A stretch of DNA of 21,415 bases from positions 1 to 21,415 of the IMG/VR virus record IMGVR_UViG_2778261463_000013; one strand, 5' to 3'. Source of the stretch: a virus (Duplodnaviria > Heunggongvirae > Uroviricota > Caudoviricetes). Positions 1 through 21,415 of the stretch are shown in pieces; within the stretch, counting starts at the first letter, position 1, and each line of letters begins with the position of its first letter. The notes beneath the pieces were generated by a model that was given only the letters and a program-made list of their open reading frames with translations, did not search any database and was not told the DNA's origin. The position numbers and the translations under genes were made by a program.

Positions 1-99
1 ATGAGGCTGTTCCACAGAAACGATATTGAGATTGAACTGCATTTCTCCTCCGGTGAGGATAAGGTTAAATCATTGTTGATGAAAAAAACAAAGATTTAA
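1..99 (+). CDS. Short paralog (32 codons incl. stop) of the small ORF at 1171-1386; first ~72 nt are near-identical, then diverge. Starts at the window edge, so upstream context is unseen
   Basis: Bases 1-72 match 1171-1242 with few mismatches (MRLFHRNDIEIELHFSSGEDKVKS vs MRLFRRNDIEIELHFSSGEDKVKS); in-frame TAA at 97-99. Confidence 0.3.
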   Translation: MRLFHRNDIEIELHFSSGEDKVKSLLMKKTKI

Positions 100-167
100 T
101 TTATTGATATAAAGGATTTGTATCAGCGTATGTCCACGCAGTGACCACATTTTCGAGAGGTAGAGTA

Positions 168-196
168 AGCCCGCAACATTGCGGGCTTTGTCTTAT
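168..196 (+). terminator. Intrinsic terminator-like hairpin followed by a U-rich tract
   Basis: AGCCCGCAA/TTGCGGGCT inverted repeat at 168-187 followed by TTTGTCTTAT. Confidence 0.4.
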
Positions 197-238
197 AGTC
201 TGATCACTGTTTCAAGTCGGTGAGGACACCAAAAAGAA

Positions 239-272
239 AACCCGCAGTTTTTATGCTGCGGGTTTGTTTGTT
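239..272. terminator. Bidirectional intrinsic terminator-like hairpin
   Basis: 9-bp stem AACCCGCAG/CTGCGGGTT (239-247 / 256-264) with A-rich 5' flank and T-rich 3' flank. Confidence 0.45.
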
Positions 273-719
273 CATGTCTGTGAGATAGGGTGCCTTATCG
301 ACCTTACCCTGGCAACCGATTGACGGGGGATTGCTCCCCCGTCGCGGTTTCCTTACTTCTTACATTGTAAGAACGCCGCAAACTCCGCTCCCCAGAAGCT
401 CATCCGTATTTCGCACAGCGAACCGTGCAATATCCAGATGATGAGGATTGCCGTCACGCAGAACGTGATGGCCGTAAGCGATTTTTGCGACATAGCACTT
501 GCTCCTTTTCCGGAGAGGCGCTAACCTTTCACTTGTCAAGGTAATGCGGTTAGGGCCTCGGTTAAACAGAAATGTTTTCCGGGGCCTTTCCACATCCGGC
601 CTTCAGGTTTTCCCTCCGGCCATCAGCCGAAAGGCACCCGCGCGTAATTTAACTGTTTCTTTTTGTTGCGGCAATATTTCAGGTGTCAGTTGGGGTGGGC
701 TGTATCTTGTCTGATGCAT

Positions 720-752
720 AAAAAAATGCCCGCGCTTCGGCGGGCAAAAAAC
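720..752 (-). terminator. Repeated terminator module, copy 1 (minus-strand orientation: GC hairpin then U7)
   Basis: A7-T-GCCCGC-gcttcg-GCGGGC-A6; on the minus strand this reads hairpin followed by a T7 tract. Confidence 0.45.
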
Positions 753-919
753 AAGACTTTTCGTTTGTATATCATGGATAATGGACACCCTTCCTGTTGT
801 CAGGGGGAGGTACCCGTAGCTAATCTACTCACTTTGTGCCCGCAGCTCAACCCTGAAGTTTTCATGGAAAATCAGGGCTGCTTTGTGTGCGCCAGGGAAG
901 GCGCCTCGATGGCAGGCGC

Positions 920-953
920 AAAAAAAATGCCCGCTCTCCGGCGGGCAAAACAA
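920..953 (-). terminator. Repeated terminator module, copy 2
   Basis: A8-T-GCCCGC-tctccg-GCGGGC-AAAA; same stem as copies 1 and 3, different loop. Confidence 0.45.
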
Positions 954-981
954 TGATCTACGTCACATTATATTGATAACC

Positions 982-1005
982 GGGCATTCCTCCATGCCCA
1001 TTTTT
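982..1005 (+). terminator. Plus-strand terminator-like hairpin
   Basis: GGGCAT-tcctcc-ATGCCC followed by ATTTTTAATTT. Confidence 0.35.
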
Positions 1006-1170
1006 AATTTAGCCATTTTTCATTTTGTTCACAATATAGTTATCTATCATATTCATGAATGAAATTATAATTTCATCTATAGGTATAAATGATTTGTGTT
1101 AATATGTTTCTCCTGTCTAACTGTTTTCTCATTTTTCGATACTAGTATTTCTGATATATTCAGGGGGCGT

Positions 1171-1386
1171 ATGAGATTGTTCCGAAGAAACGATATTGAG
1201 ATTGAACTGCATTTCTCCTCCGGTGAGGATAAGGTTAAATCAATAAAGGTGAAACTAAGACATGCCCGGGATGTTCAGGCGTGTCAGTGTCTTATTGATG
1301 AACTCGTTGCTGCCGGAGGAACGCCAAAAAAACAAAAATATAATCTGCACGTGGTTCCTGATGACCCCATAACCACAAAAGAATAA
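1171..1386 (+). CDS. Small hypothetical protein (71 aa), moron-like: own AT-rich upstream region, bracketed by terminators
   Basis: ATG at 1171 preceded by AGGGGG SD-like sequence; AT-rich 1010-1170 upstream; stop TAA 1384-1386 runs directly into terminator copy 3; 5' end duplicated at 1-72. The track start at 1096 is a less likely upstream extension. Confidence 0.5.
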   Translation: MRLFRRNDIEIELHFSSGEDKVKSIKVKLRHARDVQACQCLIDELVAAGGTPKKQKYNLHVVPDDPITTKE

Positions 1387-1416
1387 AAAAATGCCCGCTT
1401 TCCGGCGGGCAAAAAA
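1385..1416 (-). terminator. Repeated terminator module, copy 3; probable terminator of the ogr transcript
   Basis: A7-T-GCCCGC-tttccg-GCGGGC-A6; lies ~110 bp downstream of ogr on the minus strand. Confidence 0.5.
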
Positions 1417-1528
1417 CAATTTAGGTCATATTTCATCATGGATAATTAAATACTTGCCCGTGGTTGCGGGAAAGTATCTGCCGTTAATCTACTTGCCTTA
1501 TGATGTCCTCTCAACCTGATTATTGTTC

Positions 1529-1780
1529 TTAAATATCAAGATTAATCTGAGTATTCCCCCTGTGAGATCCCGGAAAATCTTCCCACGGTATCCGCTCTGT
1601 ACCCTGCGGCGACGGGGCGCGTTTTGATGTGAATTTGTTAAAACCCTCCAGTGTGGTAAAGCCGATCCCGCATTCGAGGTTATTGCACTGGTAGTACTTC
1701 AGGCGAACTGTGCCTGAATCATTTTCATTGCGACTGGTGCGGATACGTGCGGATGCACCGCATAGGGGACAACGGAACAT
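1529..1780 (-). CDS. ogr: Ogr/Delta-family zinc-finger late-gene activator
   Basis: 83-aa ORF starting MFRCPLCG... with paired Cys motifs, resembling P2 Ogr as recalled; AAGGAG SD 6 nt upstream of the ATG; immediately downstream of D as in P2. Confidence 0.85.
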   Translation of the reverse strand: MFRCPLCGASARIRTSRNENDSGTVRLKYYQCNNLECGIGFTTLEGFNKFTSKRAPSPQGTERIPWEDFPGSHRGNTQINLDI

Positions 1781-1823
1781 GGCTTCTCCTTATCTGGCTG
1801 AGTGGAGATGGCTCATTTTAATT

Positions 1824-2915
1824 TTATCCGCCTGAATCTGCTATCCATTCGGGGATTTTCGCTTCCAGCTCCAGTTGTGTGGTGAAGCCGCTTTCATCTA
1901 TGATGTGCTCCACCCTGGCAATAATCCAGTCCTGATTGTCCACCTCGCTTTTAAAACCTGTTACCCTGCCGTGCATTTCGGGGTACAGGTCGGCACGACC
2001 CCGTGCCAGAGTGATGGAGAATGCCGCTGCTCCCCGCTGTAACTCCTGCCACTTTGCCGCAGCTGCACGTCGTGCGGTTTCTTCATTCTGGTAAGTCCTG
2101 CGCAGAACGTAGACGTTCCCTTCCGCGCCTTCCATGTAATCACCCTCCCGGCTGCTGCTCTTCTCCTGTTTCTGTTTCCCGGCTTCCCTGCGTCGCTTCA
2201 CGTTCACTTTTTTCTTTTGCCCGAACTTCAGATCGAGCCAGTGCGCCCGGACCCCCGTATACGCATCACGGTCAGCAATGCGAAAGCGGTGACTGTCGCC
2301 GCTGCTGCGGGTAATGGCGAACGAAGGCAGGGCTCTTCCGTCCGGCCCGGTTCCGCCACCCGGCAGAATGAATAACAGGCTGCCGTTTTTTACGGTGGCA
2401 ATCGCACCCAGCATTTCAGCCATGCGGGTCAGGAAGGATATATCGCTCTCTTCGGTCTGGTCAGCGTGGTCAATTTCGATATCCATGAGGATTTCGCTTA
2501 TCTGTGTCTTCAGGCCGTAGCGGTGAGCGATGGCTGACACAACCTGTTTTACGGTCACGTCGTGCCAGGATACCTCCCGCCTCACGTTGAACTCTTCCCG
2601 AAAATCTGCGCTGCTGGCGGTGATGATCAGTTTATCTGGAGGTCCTTCCCACGCAACCTCATCAACGACGTAGGTGCCCTTGTTAACCAGTGATTCTCCT
2701 CGCCAGCCAATCATCACTCTCAGGCGTGCGCCACGTGGTGGCAACTGTAACTGCCCGTCCGTATCGTCAAGGGTGAGGGTGACGCGGTCTGCCTCAAAGG
2801 CCCGGTTATCCGTCAGGGTCAGCGTCATGAGTCGCTCTGTGAGGTTTGCCAGTGTGTTGTTGTTGATGGTGATGTCGATATCCGGTGACGGAACGGTAAC
2901 TGACAGCTCTTTCAT
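1824..2915 (-). CDS. D: P2 gpD-like late control / tail protein D
   Basis: Track ORF 1824-2951; internal ATG at 2915 with AGGAGA SD gives 363 aa. Size and position directly upstream of ogr match P2 D; the start choice is inferred. Confidence 0.75.
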   Translation of the reverse strand: MKELSVTVPSPDIDITINNNTLANLTERLMTLTLTDNRAFEADRVTLTLDDTDGQLQLPPRGARLRVMIGWRGESLVNKGTYVVDEVAWEGPPDKLIITASSADFREEFNVRREVSWHDVTVKQVVSAIAHRYGLKTQISEILMDIEIDHADQTEESDISFLTRMAEMLGAIATVKNGSLLFILPGGGTGPDGRALPSFAITRSSGDSHRFRIADRDAYTGVRAHWLDLKFGQKKKVNVKRRREAGKQKQEKSSSREGDYMEGAEGNVYVLRRTYQNEETARRAAAAKWQELQRGAAAFSITLARGRADLYPEMHGRVTGFKSEVDNQDWIIARVEHIIDESGFTTQLELEAKIPEWIADSGG

Positions 2916-2979
2916 GGTGTTCTCTCCTGGTGCGTTCTGTAATGGTTTCATGCACCGCAGCGGCGTTGAATGGCTGTTT

Positions 2980-3003
2980 TGTTGTCGCTGTCAGGAGACA
3001 ACA
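2980..3003. promoter_or_regulatory. Ogr-type late-promoter dyad (TGT-N12-ACA within TGTTGTC-N10-GACAACA) in the D / FI' divergent intergenic region
   Basis: Perfect 7-bp inverted repeat arms read in the sequence; P2-family late promoters carry a TGT-N12-ACA activator site upstream of the -10 (established knowledge); ~75-85 bp upstream of the FI' ATG at 3077. Confidence 0.5.
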
Positions 3004-3076
3004 TCAAAGGGGTGAGATTACCGCGTGTGTGGGTAATGATTACGCAAAATCAACCAGCCAGACAAGGGTGAAACAT

Positions 3077-4132
3077 ATGAGTGAAACACGCTTTCATGGT
3101 GCGCGCGTAAGGGAAAGTACCGGCCTTGCCACCGCCATTAATGATGTGGATTCCAGTGTTATTGGTATTGTGGCTACGGCAGATGACGCGGATGAAACTC
3201 TGTTCCCGCTGAACAAACCCACACTGCTGACCCGCGTCAGTGATGTGCTGGGTAAGGCCGGCACAAAGGGGACGCTTTACAAATCGCTTAAGGCTGTCGC
3301 CGACCAGGTGAGCACGAAGGTGATTGTGGTGCGCGTTCCTGATGCCAGTTCTCAGGGCGCCCCGGATACAGGAGTTACATCATTCGGTCATCTGGATCCT
3401 GAAGACAGGGCATTTTTTGGTATTGATGAGTCTGAAGATGCACATCCTGTATACCCACACAAAACGCAGGACCAGTATGTCATTGGTGGCACGGATGGCG
3501 ACGGTAATTATACCGGTATGTATGCACTTCTGATAGCTGAACAGGATGATGCCATCGGTTACCGTCCGCGCATCATCGCAGCTCCCGGACTGGATACTGA
3601 AGCTGTCACAAAATCCCTGTGTGTAATTGCAGAAAAACTTCGCGCATTTGTCTACGCGGGCTGTCACAACTGCAAGAAGCCCGCTGATGCAATCAGCTAC
3701 CGCGCCAGATTTAACGAGCGCGAACTTATGCTGCTCTGGCCTGACTTCATCGCCTATAACCCGAAATCCGGCGCTAATGAGGTCTTCCCGGCTGCGGCGT
3801 ACGCCTGCGGTTTACGTGCACGTATTGACCACGAACAGGGCTGGCATAAATCGCTGTCCAACGTGCCGGTAACAAATGTGCTGGGTATTTCCAGCCCGGT
3901 GTTCTGGTCCCTTCAGTCCGAAGACAGCGATGCCAACAATCTCAACAACAAGGAAATCACTACCATCATTTGCCGTAACGGTTTCCGCTTCTGGGGCAAC
4001 CGTACGCCGGAAACGAAGGCGTATATCTTTGAGGTGTACACGCGAACCGCTCAGGTGCTGGCTGATTCCATTGCGGAAGCGCAGTTTGAAACGATTGATG
4101 CCCCGCTGACCCCTGCTAATGTGAAAGACGTG
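3077..4132 (+). pseudogene. FI: Tail sheath protein (P2 gpFI-like), 3'-truncated; reading frame runs on into antisense M sequence
   Basis: ATG at 3077 with AAGGGTG SD; product MSETRFHGARV...GWHKSLSNVPV...RNGFRFWGNRT...YTRTAQVLAD resembles P2 FI as recalled; similarity is lost at ~4125-4135, exactly where convergent M ends; the rest of the 442-aa track ORF (to 4258) is not sheath-like. Confidence 0.7.
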
Positions 4133-4909
4133 TTAACCACGTTTCGCCTTCGCTTTCGCCTTCGGCGTCGTGGTCTGTTCTCTGGTTGTATCTTTCTGTG
4201 CCGCAGGCTCCTGTGCGGCAGCGGCTTCATCCTGTCCGGCCTTTTTCAGGGCCCGTGAAAGCGTGGCAATCTCACGTTTTACCCCCGCATTCGGGTTAAG
4301 GTGCATTGCCTCACGGAACAGCTTCAGACTCACCGCCATGCTGTCGGCATCGGTCAGGCCACGACGGGCAAAGGCGCATGCCTTGCACAGCTTGGCGCGG
4401 ACCTCATCGGGCATGTCCCGGTTCGCGACAATTTGCCAGAGGGTGTCCAGCGGTTCGATGTAGCCGGACAAATCGGCGTGTGCATCCGTTCCGGCCTGTG
4501 TCAGAACAGGGTTGCAGATTTCCTCGGTCAGTACCGTGGCTGCCGTACGCCCGAAGTTGTCAGGCATCGTGAGGTTGTGGCGAACCACATAATCCCCGAT
4601 GCGCAGTGCAAGCGCCAGGTCGCCACAGTCCACGGCCCACACCATGAGTGTGGCTATCACCTCATCCTGCTGTCCGCCGTCGGCTTCCAGCGTGCCGTCT
4701 ATCCAGCCTGCAAAACCCGGCAGCATTTCACGCTTGAGCGCGGCCTTTGCCGCTTTTGCCTGGACGCCCTTTATGCGTTGCTGTGCCAGGCGCAGACGGT
4801 GAAGGACCTGCTCATGAGCCGTGCGGGCCACGATATCCTCGTTTTCTGCTGCCGTTCCTGCCCGTAAAGCCATCACGTGCTGGAAATGAGCCTGTGCCGG
4901 TGTCAGCAT
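4133..4909 (-). CDS. M: Terminase small (endonuclease) subunit, P2 gpM-like
   Basis: 258-aa ORF with ...MPDEVRAKL... region resembling P2 M as recalled; directly downstream of N with a 2-bp gap. Confidence 0.8.
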   Translation of the reverse strand: MLTPAQAHFQHVMALRAGTAAENEDIVARTAHEQVLHRLRLAQQRIKGVQAKAAKAALKREMLPGFAGWIDGTLEADGGQQDEVIATLMVWAVDCGDLALALRIGDYVVRHNLTMPDNFGRTAATVLTEEICNPVLTQAGTDAHADLSGYIEPLDTLWQIVANRDMPDEVRAKLCKACAFARRGLTDADSMAVSLKLFREAMHLNPNAGVKREIATLSRALKKAGQDEAAAAQEPAAQKDTTREQTTTPKAKAKAKRG

Positions 4910-20329: not shown

Positions 20330-20398
20330 CGCTGTATATTGAACGGGCGGCGTTCAGTAAGCAGGGGTTAACAGGTTTATCCGTCGGAGGTGCTGATC

Positions 20399-21177
20399 AT
20401 GTCGATTAAGCAACTCAAAGACGGACGTTATCAGGTTGATGTAAGGCCTCAGGGGGCGGGAGGAAGGCGGATTCGTAAGATTTTCACCCTGAAATCAAAG
20501 GCGCAGGAATTCGAAAGATACGTTCTTCAGAATTTCCACAATAACCCGTGGCAGGCAAGGCCCGCCGATCAACGGCGGTTATCAGAACTGATTGAGGTGT
20601 GGTGGATGCTTGATGGTCGTAATCAGGCATATGGTGATACCTACAGAACCAGACTGGAGAAGGTGATACGTGAAATGGGGGACCCGCGCGCCAGCCAGAT
20701 GACACGAAAATTCATGATTGAGTATCGCTCGGATAAGTTGCAGGCGGGACTGATGCCGTCCAGTATCAATCGCGACCTGTGCGCCTTATCTGCGATGTTT
20801 TCGTTGTTAATTGACGCGGAGGTTTATCATAACGAAAACCCTGTGCGCGGAATACGTAAACTCAAGGTTCAGAATACAGAAATGGCCTTTCTTTCAGATG
20901 ACGAGATTGATCGCCTTCTGAAACGGCTTGAGGGTGATGCACGACGCATTGCCATTCTGTGCCTTTCGACCGGGGCCAGATGGAAAGAGGCGTCAACGCT
21001 TCGCGGGGAACACATCGTGGGTAACAGGGTGACGTTCTTTAACACAAAGAACGGGAAATCGCGCTCGGTTCCTGTAGCTGATTCCGTTGTGCCGTTAATT
21101 AAAACCCGCCGGACCGGCCTGTTATATCAGGTTGATTATCTCAGTTTCAGGGAGATCCTTCAGGAGGTGAAGCCCGA
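20399..21177 (+). pseudogene. int: Tyrosine integrase, P2 Int-like, 3'-truncated (similarity lost after ...KPDL)
   Basis: ATG at 20399 (MSIKQLKDGRYQVDVRP...) with GGAGGTG SD; matches the P2 Int N-terminal and central pattern (...SSINRDL..., ...IAILCLSTGARW...); the C-terminal catalytic segment is missing and the frame continues into unrelated sequence. Confidence 0.8.
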
Positions 21178-21415
21178 CTTGCGCACGCTGTCGATAGCGC
21201 CATTCCAACAAAATCAGACGAAAAGGTTATCTGGAGCGCCTGTACAGTTAACTGTGGTAGTCGCTGCCCGCTACGTATGCACGTCGTGGACGGTGAAATC
21301 AAATATGTCGAAACGGACAATACCGGCGATGACAATTACGACGGCCTGCACCAGGTTCGCGCCTGCCTGCGTGGGCGTTCCATGCGTCGCCGTGTCTACA
21401 ATCCGGACCGCCTGA
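21178..21415 (+). CDS. dmsA: 5'-truncated DmsA-like molybdopterin oxidoreductase catalytic subunit, continuing beyond the window; no start codon or Tat-signal N-terminus
   Basis: Frame 1 translation ...RLAHAVDSAIPTKSDEKVIWSACTVNCGSRCPLRMHVVDGEIKYVETDNTGDDNYDGLHQVRACLRGRSMRRRVYNPDRL matches E. coli DmsA N-terminal region as recalled (Cys-rich Fe-S motif); this frame is open only back to 21136 and has no ATG. Confidence 0.7.

What the first reader, a model, noticed from the sequence alone, without database searches (positions are those of the whole stretch)
1..1528. Left boundary zone: triplicated terminator module, duplicated ~100-bp unit and duplicated small ORF
Three near-identical hairpins (A7-T-GCCCGC-N6-GCGGGC-A6) with different loops sit at 720, 920 and 1385. 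A ~100-bp segment after copy 1 (756-860) is ~60-65% identical to the one after copy 3 (1421-1520), sharing CATGGATAAT, TAATCTACT and CAACC(C)TGA. The 71-aa ORF has a truncated paralog at the window start. P2-family att sites lie just downstream of ogr and often duplicate the 3' end of a small RNA or tRNA, so this pattern fits successive integrations at one site, with the small ORF as a moron.
Basis: partly seen in the sequence, partly recalled or inferred. Interest (0 to 1): 0.45.

Follow-up and report, generated by a model that had tools for sequence, protein, structure and literature searches.

The report
Prophage cargo zone with repeated small-RNA-like units
The three repeated hairpins are not the phage attachment site. 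They are the terminators of three related small-RNA-like units carried as cargo by a rare, now defective, P2-like E. coli prophage, next to a hok/sok toxin locus, a small phage gene and the relic of another phage's attachment site.

Summary
In detail: three hairpins, a duplicated ~100-bp flank (59% identical) and a truncated copy of the 71-aa ORF. The att interpretation of the hairpins is wrong. In the full-length relative (E. coli LH50-c) the prophage ends are a 15-bp duplication of the serS terminator. It lies 2.2 kb left of the window start and again beside int. The module hairpin-unit-hairpin-ORF-hairpin-ogr occurs in only 31 of 5426 E. coli genomes. It travels with the prophage to four chromosomal sites (serS, copA, ihfA, zapB), so it is phage cargo between ogr and attP. 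Each hairpin terminates only on the minus strand. Each closes a homologous unit with a conserved sigma-70-like promoter (17-nt spacer), a 5' stem-loop, an A/U-rich linker (UAUC[C/A]AU) and a U7 tail. I read these as sibling sRNA genes (no Rfam match, no expression data). Window 73-160 is a relic pdxB-type att core and arm fused to the truncated ORF, so two phages did recombine here. hok/sok lies at 290-715. The 71-aa ORF is a real att-proximal phage gene of unknown function.

The parts
1..72 (+). Truncated 5' copy of the small gene S. The ORF at 1-99 reads on into att-derived sequence.
   Evidence: 94% identical to 1171-1242. The alignment shows that S homology ends at about 72-74.
73..88 (.). 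Relic att core of a pdxB-integrating (Chuche-type) P2-like phage: TTGTTGATGAAAAAAA.
   Evidence: Homologous to phage Chuche attP. In Chuche-type prophages next to pdxB the two junction matches overlap at query 251-270, which is this sequence.
89..160 (.). Relic P' arm with two arm-type repeat candidates: GTCCAC at 132-137 and GACCAC at 143-148.
   Evidence: About 90% identical to the Chuche P' arm (H115, 87). The same GTCCAC repeats occur at the 3' end of the Chuche int gene and in the serS-, copA- and raiA-type arms. Reading them as Int sites is inference.
162..193 (+). Plus-strand terminator hairpin that follows the relic P' arm.
   Evidence: (I3). Conserved in Chuche.
231..272 (.). Bidirectional terminator at the 3' end of the hok transcript.
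   Evidence: 238-265 on both strands. Homologous to the Chuche hok 3' end.
290..715 (-). hok/sok type I toxin-antitoxin locus. hok CDS at 353-493; leader and sok region at 480-639.
   Evidence: Pfam HOK_GEF 29 bits, above the 22-bit cut-off. PHROG 251 E=8.5e-22. Rfam sok 46 bits, E=1e-8, below gathering. RefSeq annotates a Hok/Gef family protein. The same locus sits next to ogr in P88-like phages.
720..815 (-). RNA unit type a. It ends in hairpin 1 (727-746) plus a T7 run. The 5' end is inferred from the -10 position.
   Evidence: Covariance model R1, 111 bits. Fold: 5' stem-loop, open linker, terminator. Terminator scan.
822..850 (-). Promoter-like site of unit a: -35 TTGAGC (850-845), 17-nt spacer, -10 TAGATT (827-822).
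   Evidence: Coordinates. Conserved across all units while the spacer diverges.
921..999 (-). RNA unit type d. It ends in hairpin 2 (928-947) plus a T8 run. Its 5' stem-loop is GGGCAU-GGAGGA-AUGCCC (999-982).
   Evidence: Model R1, 43.7 bits, E about 1e-8.
1006..1034 (-). Promoter-like site of unit d: -35 TTGTGA (1034-1029), 17-nt spacer, -10 TAAATT (1011-1006).
   Evidence: Coordinates. The same geometry holds in the three copies of repeat family D9, one of which has TAGATT.
1171..1386 (+). Gene S, 71 aa, unknown function. An att-proximal phage moron.
   Evidence: phrog_14142 E=4.9e-12. Homologues at 35-44% identity keep 13 invariant residues. Absent from deposited phages. RefSeq WP_001236182.1.
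1385..1479 (-). RNA unit type c. It ends in hairpin 3 (1392-1411) plus a T7 run. The same hairpin is the terminator and 3' UTR end of ogr.
   Evidence: Model R1, 88.8 bits. Fold z-score -3.4. Terminator scan.
1486..1514 (-). Promoter-like site of unit c: -35 TTGAGA, 17-nt spacer, -10 TAGATT.
   Evidence: Found by the consensus scan, 9 of 12 matches.
1529..1780 (-). ogr/Delta-type late activator gene. First core gene of the prophage to the right of the cargo zone.
   Evidence: Pfam Ogr_Delta E=4.9e-14. Annotation.

Best explanation
Window 1-1528 is not the phage-host boundary. It is the right-hand part of a roughly 3.7-kb cargo (moron) zone that a P2-like prophage, distantly related to the P88/Xuanwuvirus phages, carries between ogr and its attP P' arm. 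In the full-length relative the element sits in the serS terminator.

The three hairpins are Rho-independent terminators that work on the minus strand only. Each closes a homologous minus-strand transcription unit. A unit has a sigma-70-type promoter (TTGAGA/TTGAGC/TTGTGA, 17 nt, TAGATT/TAAATT), a 5' stem-loop, a 30-40-nt A/U-rich single-stranded linker with the motif UAUC(C/A)AU, a U-rich stretch, and the terminator with a U7 tail. I read the units as diverged sibling genes for 80-100-nt trans-acting, probably Hfq-binding, sRNAs. They would be expressed from the prophage, with the variable linker as the pairing region. In types a and c the linker contains CCAUGAU, which could pair with an AUCAUGG start-codon region. 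The unit nearest ogr also serves as the ogr 3' UTR and terminator.

The 1170-bp direct duplication (truncated S at 1-72, full S at 1171) arose when a pdxB-type relative joined its att core and P' arm to S. The join lies at a short microhomology, AAGG(G)TTAAA(A)ATC. Homologous recombination between the two related genomes then left only the left junction.

What is shown and what is inferred:
- Shown: location, mobility with the phage, terminator polarity, unit homology, promoter geometry, relic att homology.
- Inferred: transcription of the units, sRNA function, targets, and the order of recombination events.
For: **Real att site**
- K-12 has serS-...AAAAAGCGCCTGCGGGCGCTTTTTTTGTC...-dmsA with no insert.
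- LH50-c has CCTGCGGGCGCTTTT at the serS side and again next to int and dmsA. The 3.7-kb zone and the prophage lie between them.
- The total of about 37 kb is within the size range of P88-like phages, 33-37.6 kb.

**Cargo, not host**
- Window 716-1528 is found in 31 of 5426 genomes, never on plasmids.
- It always lies next to ogr, at serS, copA, ihfA (with hicAB) or zapB.
- Related phages carry other cargo in the same interval: hok/sok, or a methylase with com.

**Terminator polarity**
- The T-tract is on the minus strand only.

**Unit homology**
- A covariance model built from seven units hits 720-820, 1385-1484 and 921-1005, all on the minus strand.
- Nine hairpins and eight model-detected units occur in LH50-c.

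**Promoter**
- The -35 and -10 hexamers and the 17-nt spacing are kept in all types, while the spacer sequence diverges. One promoter is found independently by the scan.

**Structure**
- All types fold as 5' stem-loop, open linker, terminator.
- The stem-loop is kept with different sequences. Reading the sequences by hand: type a G-C and C-G pairs become A-U and U-A in type c, the inner CCUG/CAGG becomes CCCG/CGGG, and type d uses GGGCAU/AUGCCC. RNAalifold counts one compensatory pair on a slightly misaligned MAFFT alignment.

**No conserved ORF in the units**
- The plus-strand MDNGHPSCC... frame and the minus-strand MKTSGL... frame are broken or absent in other copies.

**Relic att**
-.
- SCU-115 equals LH50-c minus exactly this 1170-bp segment and has an intact S.
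Against: - There are no expression data of any kind. The promoters are moderate matches (8-9 of 12), and only one passes the consensus scan.
- The family is very narrow. Only about six distinct sequences are known, all from E. coli-type contexts. Covariation therefore rests on three or four independent lineages.
- Two fold z-scores are weak, at about -1.9 to -2.0.
- There is no Rfam family, no literature hit and no identified target (one search was uninformative).
- Near-identity of 1006-1780 between lineages that differ by 8% in gpD reflects recombinational mosaicism, not demonstrable purifying selection.
- The units could be multiplied copies of an ogr 3' UTR. Homology extends about 35 nt upstream of the -35, into the last ogr codons.
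Confidence: 0.6

Rival explanations
1. First reader's model. The hairpins are copies of the att core, being the 3' end of a host sRNA or tRNA, left by successive integrations of P2-family phages at one chromosomal site.
For: P2-family phages do integrate just downstream of ogr, and often in sRNA or terminator sequences (established knowledge; here the serS terminator). A relic att of another phage type does lie in the zone, at 73-160. Sequences upstream of the S copies weakly resemble P' arms (family D7).
Against: No hairpin copy is present at the int end, and none in the empty K-12 site. The true duplicated core is a different sequence. The hairpin module is found at four unrelated chromosomal sites, always attached to ogr. 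Copy number changes within the phage cargo from 4 to 9. The hairpin is absent from 5395 of 5426 E. coli genomes.
Confidence: 0.04
2. Non-functional debris. The units are decaying copies of an ogr 3' UTR and terminator, multiplied by unequal or homologous recombination between related or tandem prophages. The hairpins act only as terminators or insulators and as recombination joints between morons. No RNA product has a function.
For: The unit nearest ogr is the ogr 3' UTR. Unit homology reaches into the last ogr codons. The zone is plainly mosaic, with blocks 80-82% identical, an 1170-bp recombinant insertion and sharp identity breaks. Pseudogenised S copies occur in the same zone. The window's prophage is itself decaying.
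Against: Debris would not be expected to keep both promoter hexamers and the exact 17-nt spacing in four diverged types while the spacer and linker diverge. Nor would it keep a 5' stem-loop through compensatory changes and a wholly different stem sequence in type d. All terminators remain perfect 7-bp stems with T7-T8 tails.
Confidence: 0.28
3. Type I toxin-antitoxin-like repeats, as in ibs/sib or ldr/rdl. A small toxic peptide on the plus strand (starting at ATGGATAAT) is overlapped by an antisense RNA from the minus strand.
For: Tandem ~200-bp repeats next to a true type I system (hok/sok). The conserved linker motif AUUAUCCAUGAU is exactly antisense to a plus-strand ATG.
Against: The plus-strand ORF is 3 codons long in unit c and 16 in LH50-c unit 1. 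It reads through the hairpin in unit a and has no ATG in types b and d. It has no hydrophobic peptide and no plus-strand promoter or terminator.
Confidence: 0.04
4. A host repetitive extragenic element or MITE (REP/BIME, ERIC, RSA and the like) that happens to lie here.
For: Short, hairpin-containing, multi-copy and intergenic.
Against: It is present in 0.6% of E. coli genomes and only in this prophage zone. It is absent from K-12 and from 185,579 species representatives. It has no terminal inverted repeats. The hairpins are in direct orientation with a fixed polarity.
Confidence: 0.02

Closest known systems
Prophage-encoded trans-acting sRNAs carried as morons, and multi-copy 'sibling' sRNAs (OmrA/OmrB, Qrr1-5, the Sib RNAs). 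Comparison from general knowledge.
   Same: Autonomous promoter-RNA-terminator units of about 80-100 nt. They have a 5' stem-loop, a single-stranded A/U-rich region and a U-rich stretch followed by a terminator with a long U tail. Several diverged copies lie side by side on accessory prophage DNA.
   Different: No sequence or structure match to any Rfam family. Expression, Hfq binding and targets are untested. There are up to eight model-detected units in 3.7 kb, inside the ogr-att interval of a P2-like phage. I found no description of such an arrangement.
P2 attP/attB system. P2 locI overlaps the 3' end of the sRNA gene cyaR next to ogr (from memory, not tested here).
   Same: Same genome position logic: ogr, then att, then host. 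The real att of this lineage is a host terminator, serS, and also zapB with the same 15-nt core. The arms carry paired GTCCA(C/T) repeats.
   Different: In this lineage 1.3-3.7 kb of cargo lies between ogr and att.
P88-like phages (Xuanwuvirus: P88, P88_4B11, Chuche, 500465-2).
   Same: P2-type gene order, with hok/sok immediately beside ogr and variable cargo between hok and attP. Window 67-715 is 84-90% identical to the Chuche att arm and hok/sok.
   Different: Structural genes are only about 77% identical. None of these phages has the hairpin units or S. They have a different integrase and att site (pdxB).
hok/sok type I toxin-antitoxin loci.
   Same: Window 290-715 is a member. It has the Hok CDS, a leader with the sok region, and a terminator.
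   Different: It is a neighbour of the repeated units, not their homologue. The unit linker motif has no complement in the hok locus.

Membership tests
P2-family att core duplication (attL/attR) | The same core sequence is present at both ends of the prophage. | tested here: not met
   The hairpin sequence occurs only at 727-1411 in the window and not at the int end of LH50-c. The sequence duplicated at both ends is CCTGCGGGCGCTTTT. It is absent from the window, which starts inside the element and has lost attR.
P2-family att core duplication (attL/attR) | The core is host sequence, present once in prophage-free strains. | tested here: not met
   The K-12 serS-dmsA spacer has the serS terminator and no hairpin of this type. 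The module is absent from 5395 of 5426 genomes.
P2-family att core duplication (attL/attR) | Fixed chromosomal position, independent of the phage. | tested here: not met
   The same module is attached to ogr at serS, copA, ihfA and zapB.
Relic attP (core plus P' arm) of pdxB-integrating Chuche-type phage, window 73-160 | Homology to a functional attP that begins at the crossover core and continues into the P' arm with arm-type repeats. | tested here: met
   Alignment to Chuche attP. The lysogen junctions at pdxB define the core. Int binding was not testable.
Rho-independent terminator | G+C-rich stem-loop followed directly by a U-tract on the transcribed strand. | tested here: met
   7-bp stems with 6 G-C pairs, 6-nt loops and T7-T8 tails, on the minus strand only.
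Trans-acting (Hfq-type) sRNA gene | Own promoter and terminator delimiting a short non-coding transcript. | tested here: inconclusive
   Conserved -35, 17-nt spacer and -10, plus a terminator, in all unit types. No conserved ORF. This is sequence prediction only.
Trans-acting (Hfq-type) sRNA gene | Conserved secondary structure supported by covariation. | tested here: inconclusive
   The same architecture appears in all folds. Compensatory changes between types a, c and d were read by hand; RNAalifold counts one on the MAFFT alignment. There are too few independent sequences.
Trans-acting (Hfq-type) sRNA gene | Detected transcript, chaperone binding and a base-pairing target. | not testable with these tools
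   No transcriptome data were available. A crude duplex scan of the window was uninformative.
Any described RNA family (Rfam 15) | Score at or above the family's gathering threshold. | tested here: not met
   Only terminator-driven sub-threshold hits, RyhB and Trp/Thr leaders at E = 0.06-0.8.
hok/sok (window 290-715) | Hok/Gef family toxin CDS. | tested here: met
   PF01848 at 29 bits against a 22-bit cut-off. PHROG 251 E=8.5e-22.
hok/sok (window 290-715) | sok/hok leader RNA matching Rfam RF01794. | tested here: inconclusive
   46.2 bits, E=1e-8, over the full model length, but below the gathering score of 59.
Phage moron (gene S) | A gene present in some members of a phage group and absent from close relatives, at a module boundary. 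| tested here: met
   Absent from all deposited phages, including P88 and Chuche. Present next to the att arm or ogr in this lineage and in other Enterobacterales prophage relics.
Host repetitive extragenic elements / MITEs | Many dispersed copies in host intergenic regions. | tested here: not met
   115 places in 31 genomes, and all six genomes whose context was examined have them in this prophage zone. No hit in 185,579 species representatives.

The most novel reading that the evidence does not exclude
The ogr-att interval of this P2-like lineage is an expandable array of diverged sibling sRNA genes. There are three in the window and up to eight model-detected units in full-length relatives. 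They share promoter, 5' stem-loop and terminator but differ in the pairing region. That would make a phage-borne sRNA cassette system, shuffled by recombination at the common terminator, which reprogrammes host or competitor-phage translation; types a and c may pair at AUCAUGG start regions.
Probability: 0.35. Interest if true: 0.6.

Novelty: new member of a known kind. Interest (0 to 1): 0.38.

Why it matters
If the units are transcribed, this is an undescribed sRNA family. It would be an unusually dense array of sibling sRNAs carried as cargo by a temperate phage, with variable pairing regions between conserved promoter and terminator modules. That would give a compact natural system for studying how phage sRNA repertoires diversify and what they target.

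It also corrects the boundary call. In this lineage the prophage end lies kilobases beyond ogr, in a host terminator (serS or zapB). Prophage-boundary tools that stop at ogr would miss hok/sok, S and the RNA units.

If the units are not transcribed, the zone is ordinary recombinational debris in a decaying prophage.

Tried and rejected
- **Rfam scan of 1-2000 at E<=1.** Only sok and terminator-driven weak hits.
- **Phage collection searches.** The unit region by DNA and S by tblastn gave no match.
- **Pattern scans for more divergent units.**
  - IMG/VR: 2 loci.
  - Species-representative genomes: 0 loci.
  - Metagenomes: 5 true loci and 1 chance hit (L019).
  - All true loci had the same few sequence types, so no deeper covariation test was possible.
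- **Covariance-model search of loci that encode distant S homologues** (Sodalis, Symbiopectobacterium, Enterobacter, L015). No units, so S and the RNA units are not a conserved pair.
- **Function of S.** No Pfam or PADLOC hit. The AlphaFold model is low confidence (pLDDT 64; two strands and a helix), and Foldseek against the PDB has no hit below E=0.1. Function stays unknown.
- **Target search.** The motif ATCATGGATAA occurs in the window only inside the units themselves. The RNAduplex scan of ORF starts was uninformative. A whole-genome target search was not possible with these tools.
- **Purifying-selection test.** Comparing lineages gave a mosaic pattern that cannot separate selection from recent recombination.
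- **Literature.** No paper mentions the hairpin sequence or sRNAs downstream of ogr.
- **Rejected idea.** That the region upstream of each unit is a decayed ogr C-terminus. No ogr-like reading frame is there (sequence inspection).
Full report
**1. What is in the sequence**

The three hairpins exist exactly as described. TGCCCGC-N6-GCGGGCA lies at 727-746, 928-947 and 1392-1411, flanked by A-runs, and nowhere else in the 21.4-kb window. With up to 2 mismatches there are 4 matches, the fourth being the hairpin at 168-187, against 0.14 expected by chance.

The stretch after copy 1 (756-860) aligns with the one after copy 3 (1421-1520) at 59% identity (62 of 105). That is far above shuffled controls (score 72 against 19 +/- 7).

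Window 1-72 is a 94% identical copy of the first 72 nt of the 71-aa ORF at 1171-1386.

- A hok/sok locus at 290-715. The hok CDS is at 353-493 on the minus strand (Pfam HOK_GEF above cut-off, PHROG 251 E=8.5e-22, Rfam sok E=1e-8 but below gathering).
- A plus-strand terminator at 162-193 and a bidirectional terminator at 238-265.
- The polarity of the three hairpins. They have a T-tract only on the minus strand, so they terminate leftward transcription, including ogr at 1529-1780.

**2. Where the window comes from, and the real boundary**

Window 1-4136 is 99.98% identical to E. coli LH50-c and a few mostly poultry-associated strains. In LH50-c the order is:
- serS
- a 3.7-kb repeat zone
- ogr, gpD and the rest of a P2-like prophage
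- int
- dmsA

K-12 has an uninterrupted serS-dmsA spacer containing the serS terminator, AAAAAGCGCCTGCGGGCGCTTTTTTTGTC. In LH50-c the 15-nt CCTGCGGGCGCTTTT occurs just after serS, 2.2 kb left of the window start. It occurs again between int and dmsA.

So the whole element, repeat zone plus prophage, is bounded by a duplication of the serS terminator. None of the three hairpins is the att core. The element is about 37 kb, within the range of P88-like phages, 33-37.6 kb.

**3. The repeat zone is phage cargo**

The module 716-1528 (hairpin, unit, hairpin, S, hairpin, unit, then ogr) is present in only 31 of 5426 complete E. coli genomes. It is absent from deposited phages.

In those genomes it is always attached to ogr of the same prophage type, but at four different chromosomal sites:
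- serS/dmsA
- downstream of copA
- downstream of ihfA, with hicAB cargo
- downstream of zapB

The zapB junction carries the same 15-nt core as the serS junction.

The number of hairpins differs between lineages. There are four in the copA and ihfA forms, seven in the zapB form and nine at serS.

The nearest sequenced phages are P88, P88_4B11 and Chuche, about 77% identical in structural genes. They also carry cargo between attP and ogr: hok/sok directly beside ogr, plus a methylase with com or other genes. The ogr-att interval is therefore a moron hot spot in this phage group, and the window's first 1528 bases lie inside it.

**4. What the repeated unit is**

I aligned all units on the minus strand and collected every variant from genomes, IMG/VR and metagenomes. 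This shows a common architecture:
- a -35 hexamer, TTGAGA or TTGAGC
- a spacer of exactly 17 nt, whose sequence diverges
- a -10 hexamer, TAGATT
- about 95 nt of transcript
- the hairpin with a T7 tail

CAACC(C)TGA is the complement of the -35 region. TAATCTACT is the complement of the -10. CATGGATAAT is the complement of a conserved linker motif, AUUAUCCAUG.

The consensus scan independently calls the promoter of the ogr-proximal unit at 1514-1486.

A covariance model built from seven distinct units hits three places in the window, all on the minus strand:

| Unit | Window | Score | Promoter-like site |
|---|---|---|---|
| a | 720-820 | 111 bits | TTGAGC - 17 nt - TAGATT (850-822) |
| d | 921-1005 | 43.7 bits, E about 1e-8 | TTGTGA - 17 nt - TAAATT (1034-1006) |
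| c | 1385-1484 | 89 bits | TTGAGA - 17 nt - TAGATT (1514-1486) |

So the middle hairpin also closes a homologous unit, type d. Its promoter geometry is kept in its three LH50-c copies, one of which has TAGATT. All three hairpins are thus the terminators of three related minus-strand units.

Each unit folds into the same layout: a 5' stem-loop, a 30-40-nt open A/U-rich linker, a U-rich stretch, then the terminator.

The 5' stem-loop is maintained with different sequences:
- type a: GGGUACCU / GGGUGUCC, with inner CCUG / CAGG
- type c: AGAUACUU / AAGUAUUU, with inner CCCG / CGGG
- type d: GGGCAU / AUGCCC

Several changes are compensatory when read by hand. RNAalifold counts one on a slightly shifted alignment.

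No ORF is conserved in the units on either strand.

This is the anatomy of a Hfq-type trans-acting sRNA gene, present as diverged siblings. The linker differs between types. It is also the most variable part between lineages, for example in type d. That is what one expects of a pairing region.

There is no Rfam match, and I found no literature. Transcription, chaperone binding and targets remain untested. The family is narrow, with about six distinct sequences, so the structural evidence is suggestive, not conclusive.

**5. The duplicated ORF and the relic att site**

S (1171-1386) is a real gene.
- It matches phrog_14142 (E=4.9e-12).
- It has homologues at 35-44% identity with 13 invariant residues. 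They are either stand-alone (57 aa) or the C-terminal half of 128-133-aa proteins.
- These homologues also sit at the att-proximal edge of P2/HP1-like prophages or relics in other Enterobacterales: beside the raiA terminator, beside a yegQ-like gene in Enterobacter soli (identification from memory), and in Sodalis and Symbiopectobacterium.
- Its function is unknown. There is no Pfam or PADLOC hit, and the strand-strand-helix model is low confidence with no fold match.

The truncated copy at 1-72 ends where homology to the attP of phage Chuche begins. What follows is:
- the core TTGTTGATGAAAAAAA at 73-88
- the P' arm, with GTCCAC at 132-137 and GACCAC at 143-148
- the terminator at 162-193

Chuche-type prophages lie next to pdxB, and their two junctions overlap at exactly this core. 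S and the Chuche P arm share the microhomology AAGG(G)TTAAA(A)ATC at the joint.

The zapB-site relative SCU-115 is colinear with LH50-c except that it lacks exactly this 1170-bp segment: core, P' arm, hok/sok, unit a, unit d and the first 72 nt of S. It has an intact S.

The simplest history has two steps. First, a pdxB-type relative carrying hok/sok, unit a, unit d, S and unit c joined into S of a resident serS-type prophage. Second, homologous recombination between the two related genomes removed everything but the left junction.

**6. Rivals**

- **Att-core model for the hairpins.** This fails each of its defining tests (see the membership table).
- **Recombinational debris.** This is the serious rival. 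The units would be multiplied ogr 3' UTRs, with the hairpins acting only as terminators and recombination joints. The mosaic structure fits it. It does not explain why both promoter hexamers, the spacing, the 5' stem and perfect terminators are retained in four diverged types.
- **Type I toxin-antitoxin reading.** There is no conserved peptide.
- **Host-repeat reading.** The distribution contradicts it.

**7. Verdict**

- It is close to certain that the zone is phage cargo and that the hairpins are minus-strand terminators.
- It is plausible (about 0.5) but unproven that the units are functional sibling sRNA genes.
- Overall this is a new member of a known kind, prophage-borne sRNA-like morons, and of moderate interest.

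**8. State of the prophage in the window**

The prophage in the window is itself defective relative to LH50-c.
- A 13.7-kb deletion joins the sheath gene to gpM at 4132-4136.
- A 634-bp deletion at 21179/21180 removes the int 3' end, attR and the dmsA start.

Noticed in passing
window 4132-4136: Relative to LH50-c the window lacks 13.7 kb. The 3' end of the tail sheath gene is joined, through a 5-nt overlap, to the end of gpM. Tube, tape measure, baseplate, fibre and lysis genes are missing. No complete E. coli genome in the collection has this form.
   Followed up: partly
window 21179-21415: A 634-bp deletion relative to LH50-c removes the last 214 nt of int, attR and the first 124 nt of dmsA. 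This creates the fused ORF 20390-21415, whose stop is the last base of the window. The prophage is therefore locked in place and dmsA is truncated.
   Followed up: partly
A second, 82% identical copy lies at L001 10257-10700 in the full-length relative.
   Followed up: yes
window 848-880: Dyad symmetry CAACCCTGA-N15-TCAGGGCTG overlaps the -35 of unit a. It is conserved in types a and b and partly in type c, where its left arm lies in the last ogr codons. It could be an operator for an unknown regulator or an RNA hairpin in read-through transcripts.
   Followed up: no
window 1070-1113; L001 11249-11292, 11896-11939, 9823-9866: The region upstream of each S copy resembles att P' arms (repeat family D7; one copy keeps GTGTCCAC). 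S may once have sat directly next to an att arm, as its distant homologue does beside raiA in L015.
   Followed up: partly
L001 9800-9815, L011 ~3250-3270, L003 ~11195: The same 15-nt core CCTGCGGGCGCTTTT forms the junction at both the serS and the zapB terminators. Related prophages use copA, ihfA, raiA and pdxB 3' ends. This integrase group seems to target host gene terminators or 3' ends.
   Followed up: partly
L001 17442-19637 and the same gene in L009-L012: The tape measure gene is annotated as an incomplete pseudogene in every full-length relative, followed by about 1.1 kb without annotation. This may be an annotation artefact or a shared disruption.
   Followed up: no
L014 1-100 (IMG/VR contig): Reading the sequence by eye, an end resembling IS10 is inserted in one of the RNA-like units of a related element.
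   Followed up: no
L001 9976-10197: A 73-aa ORF (WP_089623492) lies directly after the P' arm terminator and is conserved in the copA-site relatives (WP_029490443). It has no family match. It is followed by a degenerate hairpin copy.
   Followed up: partly
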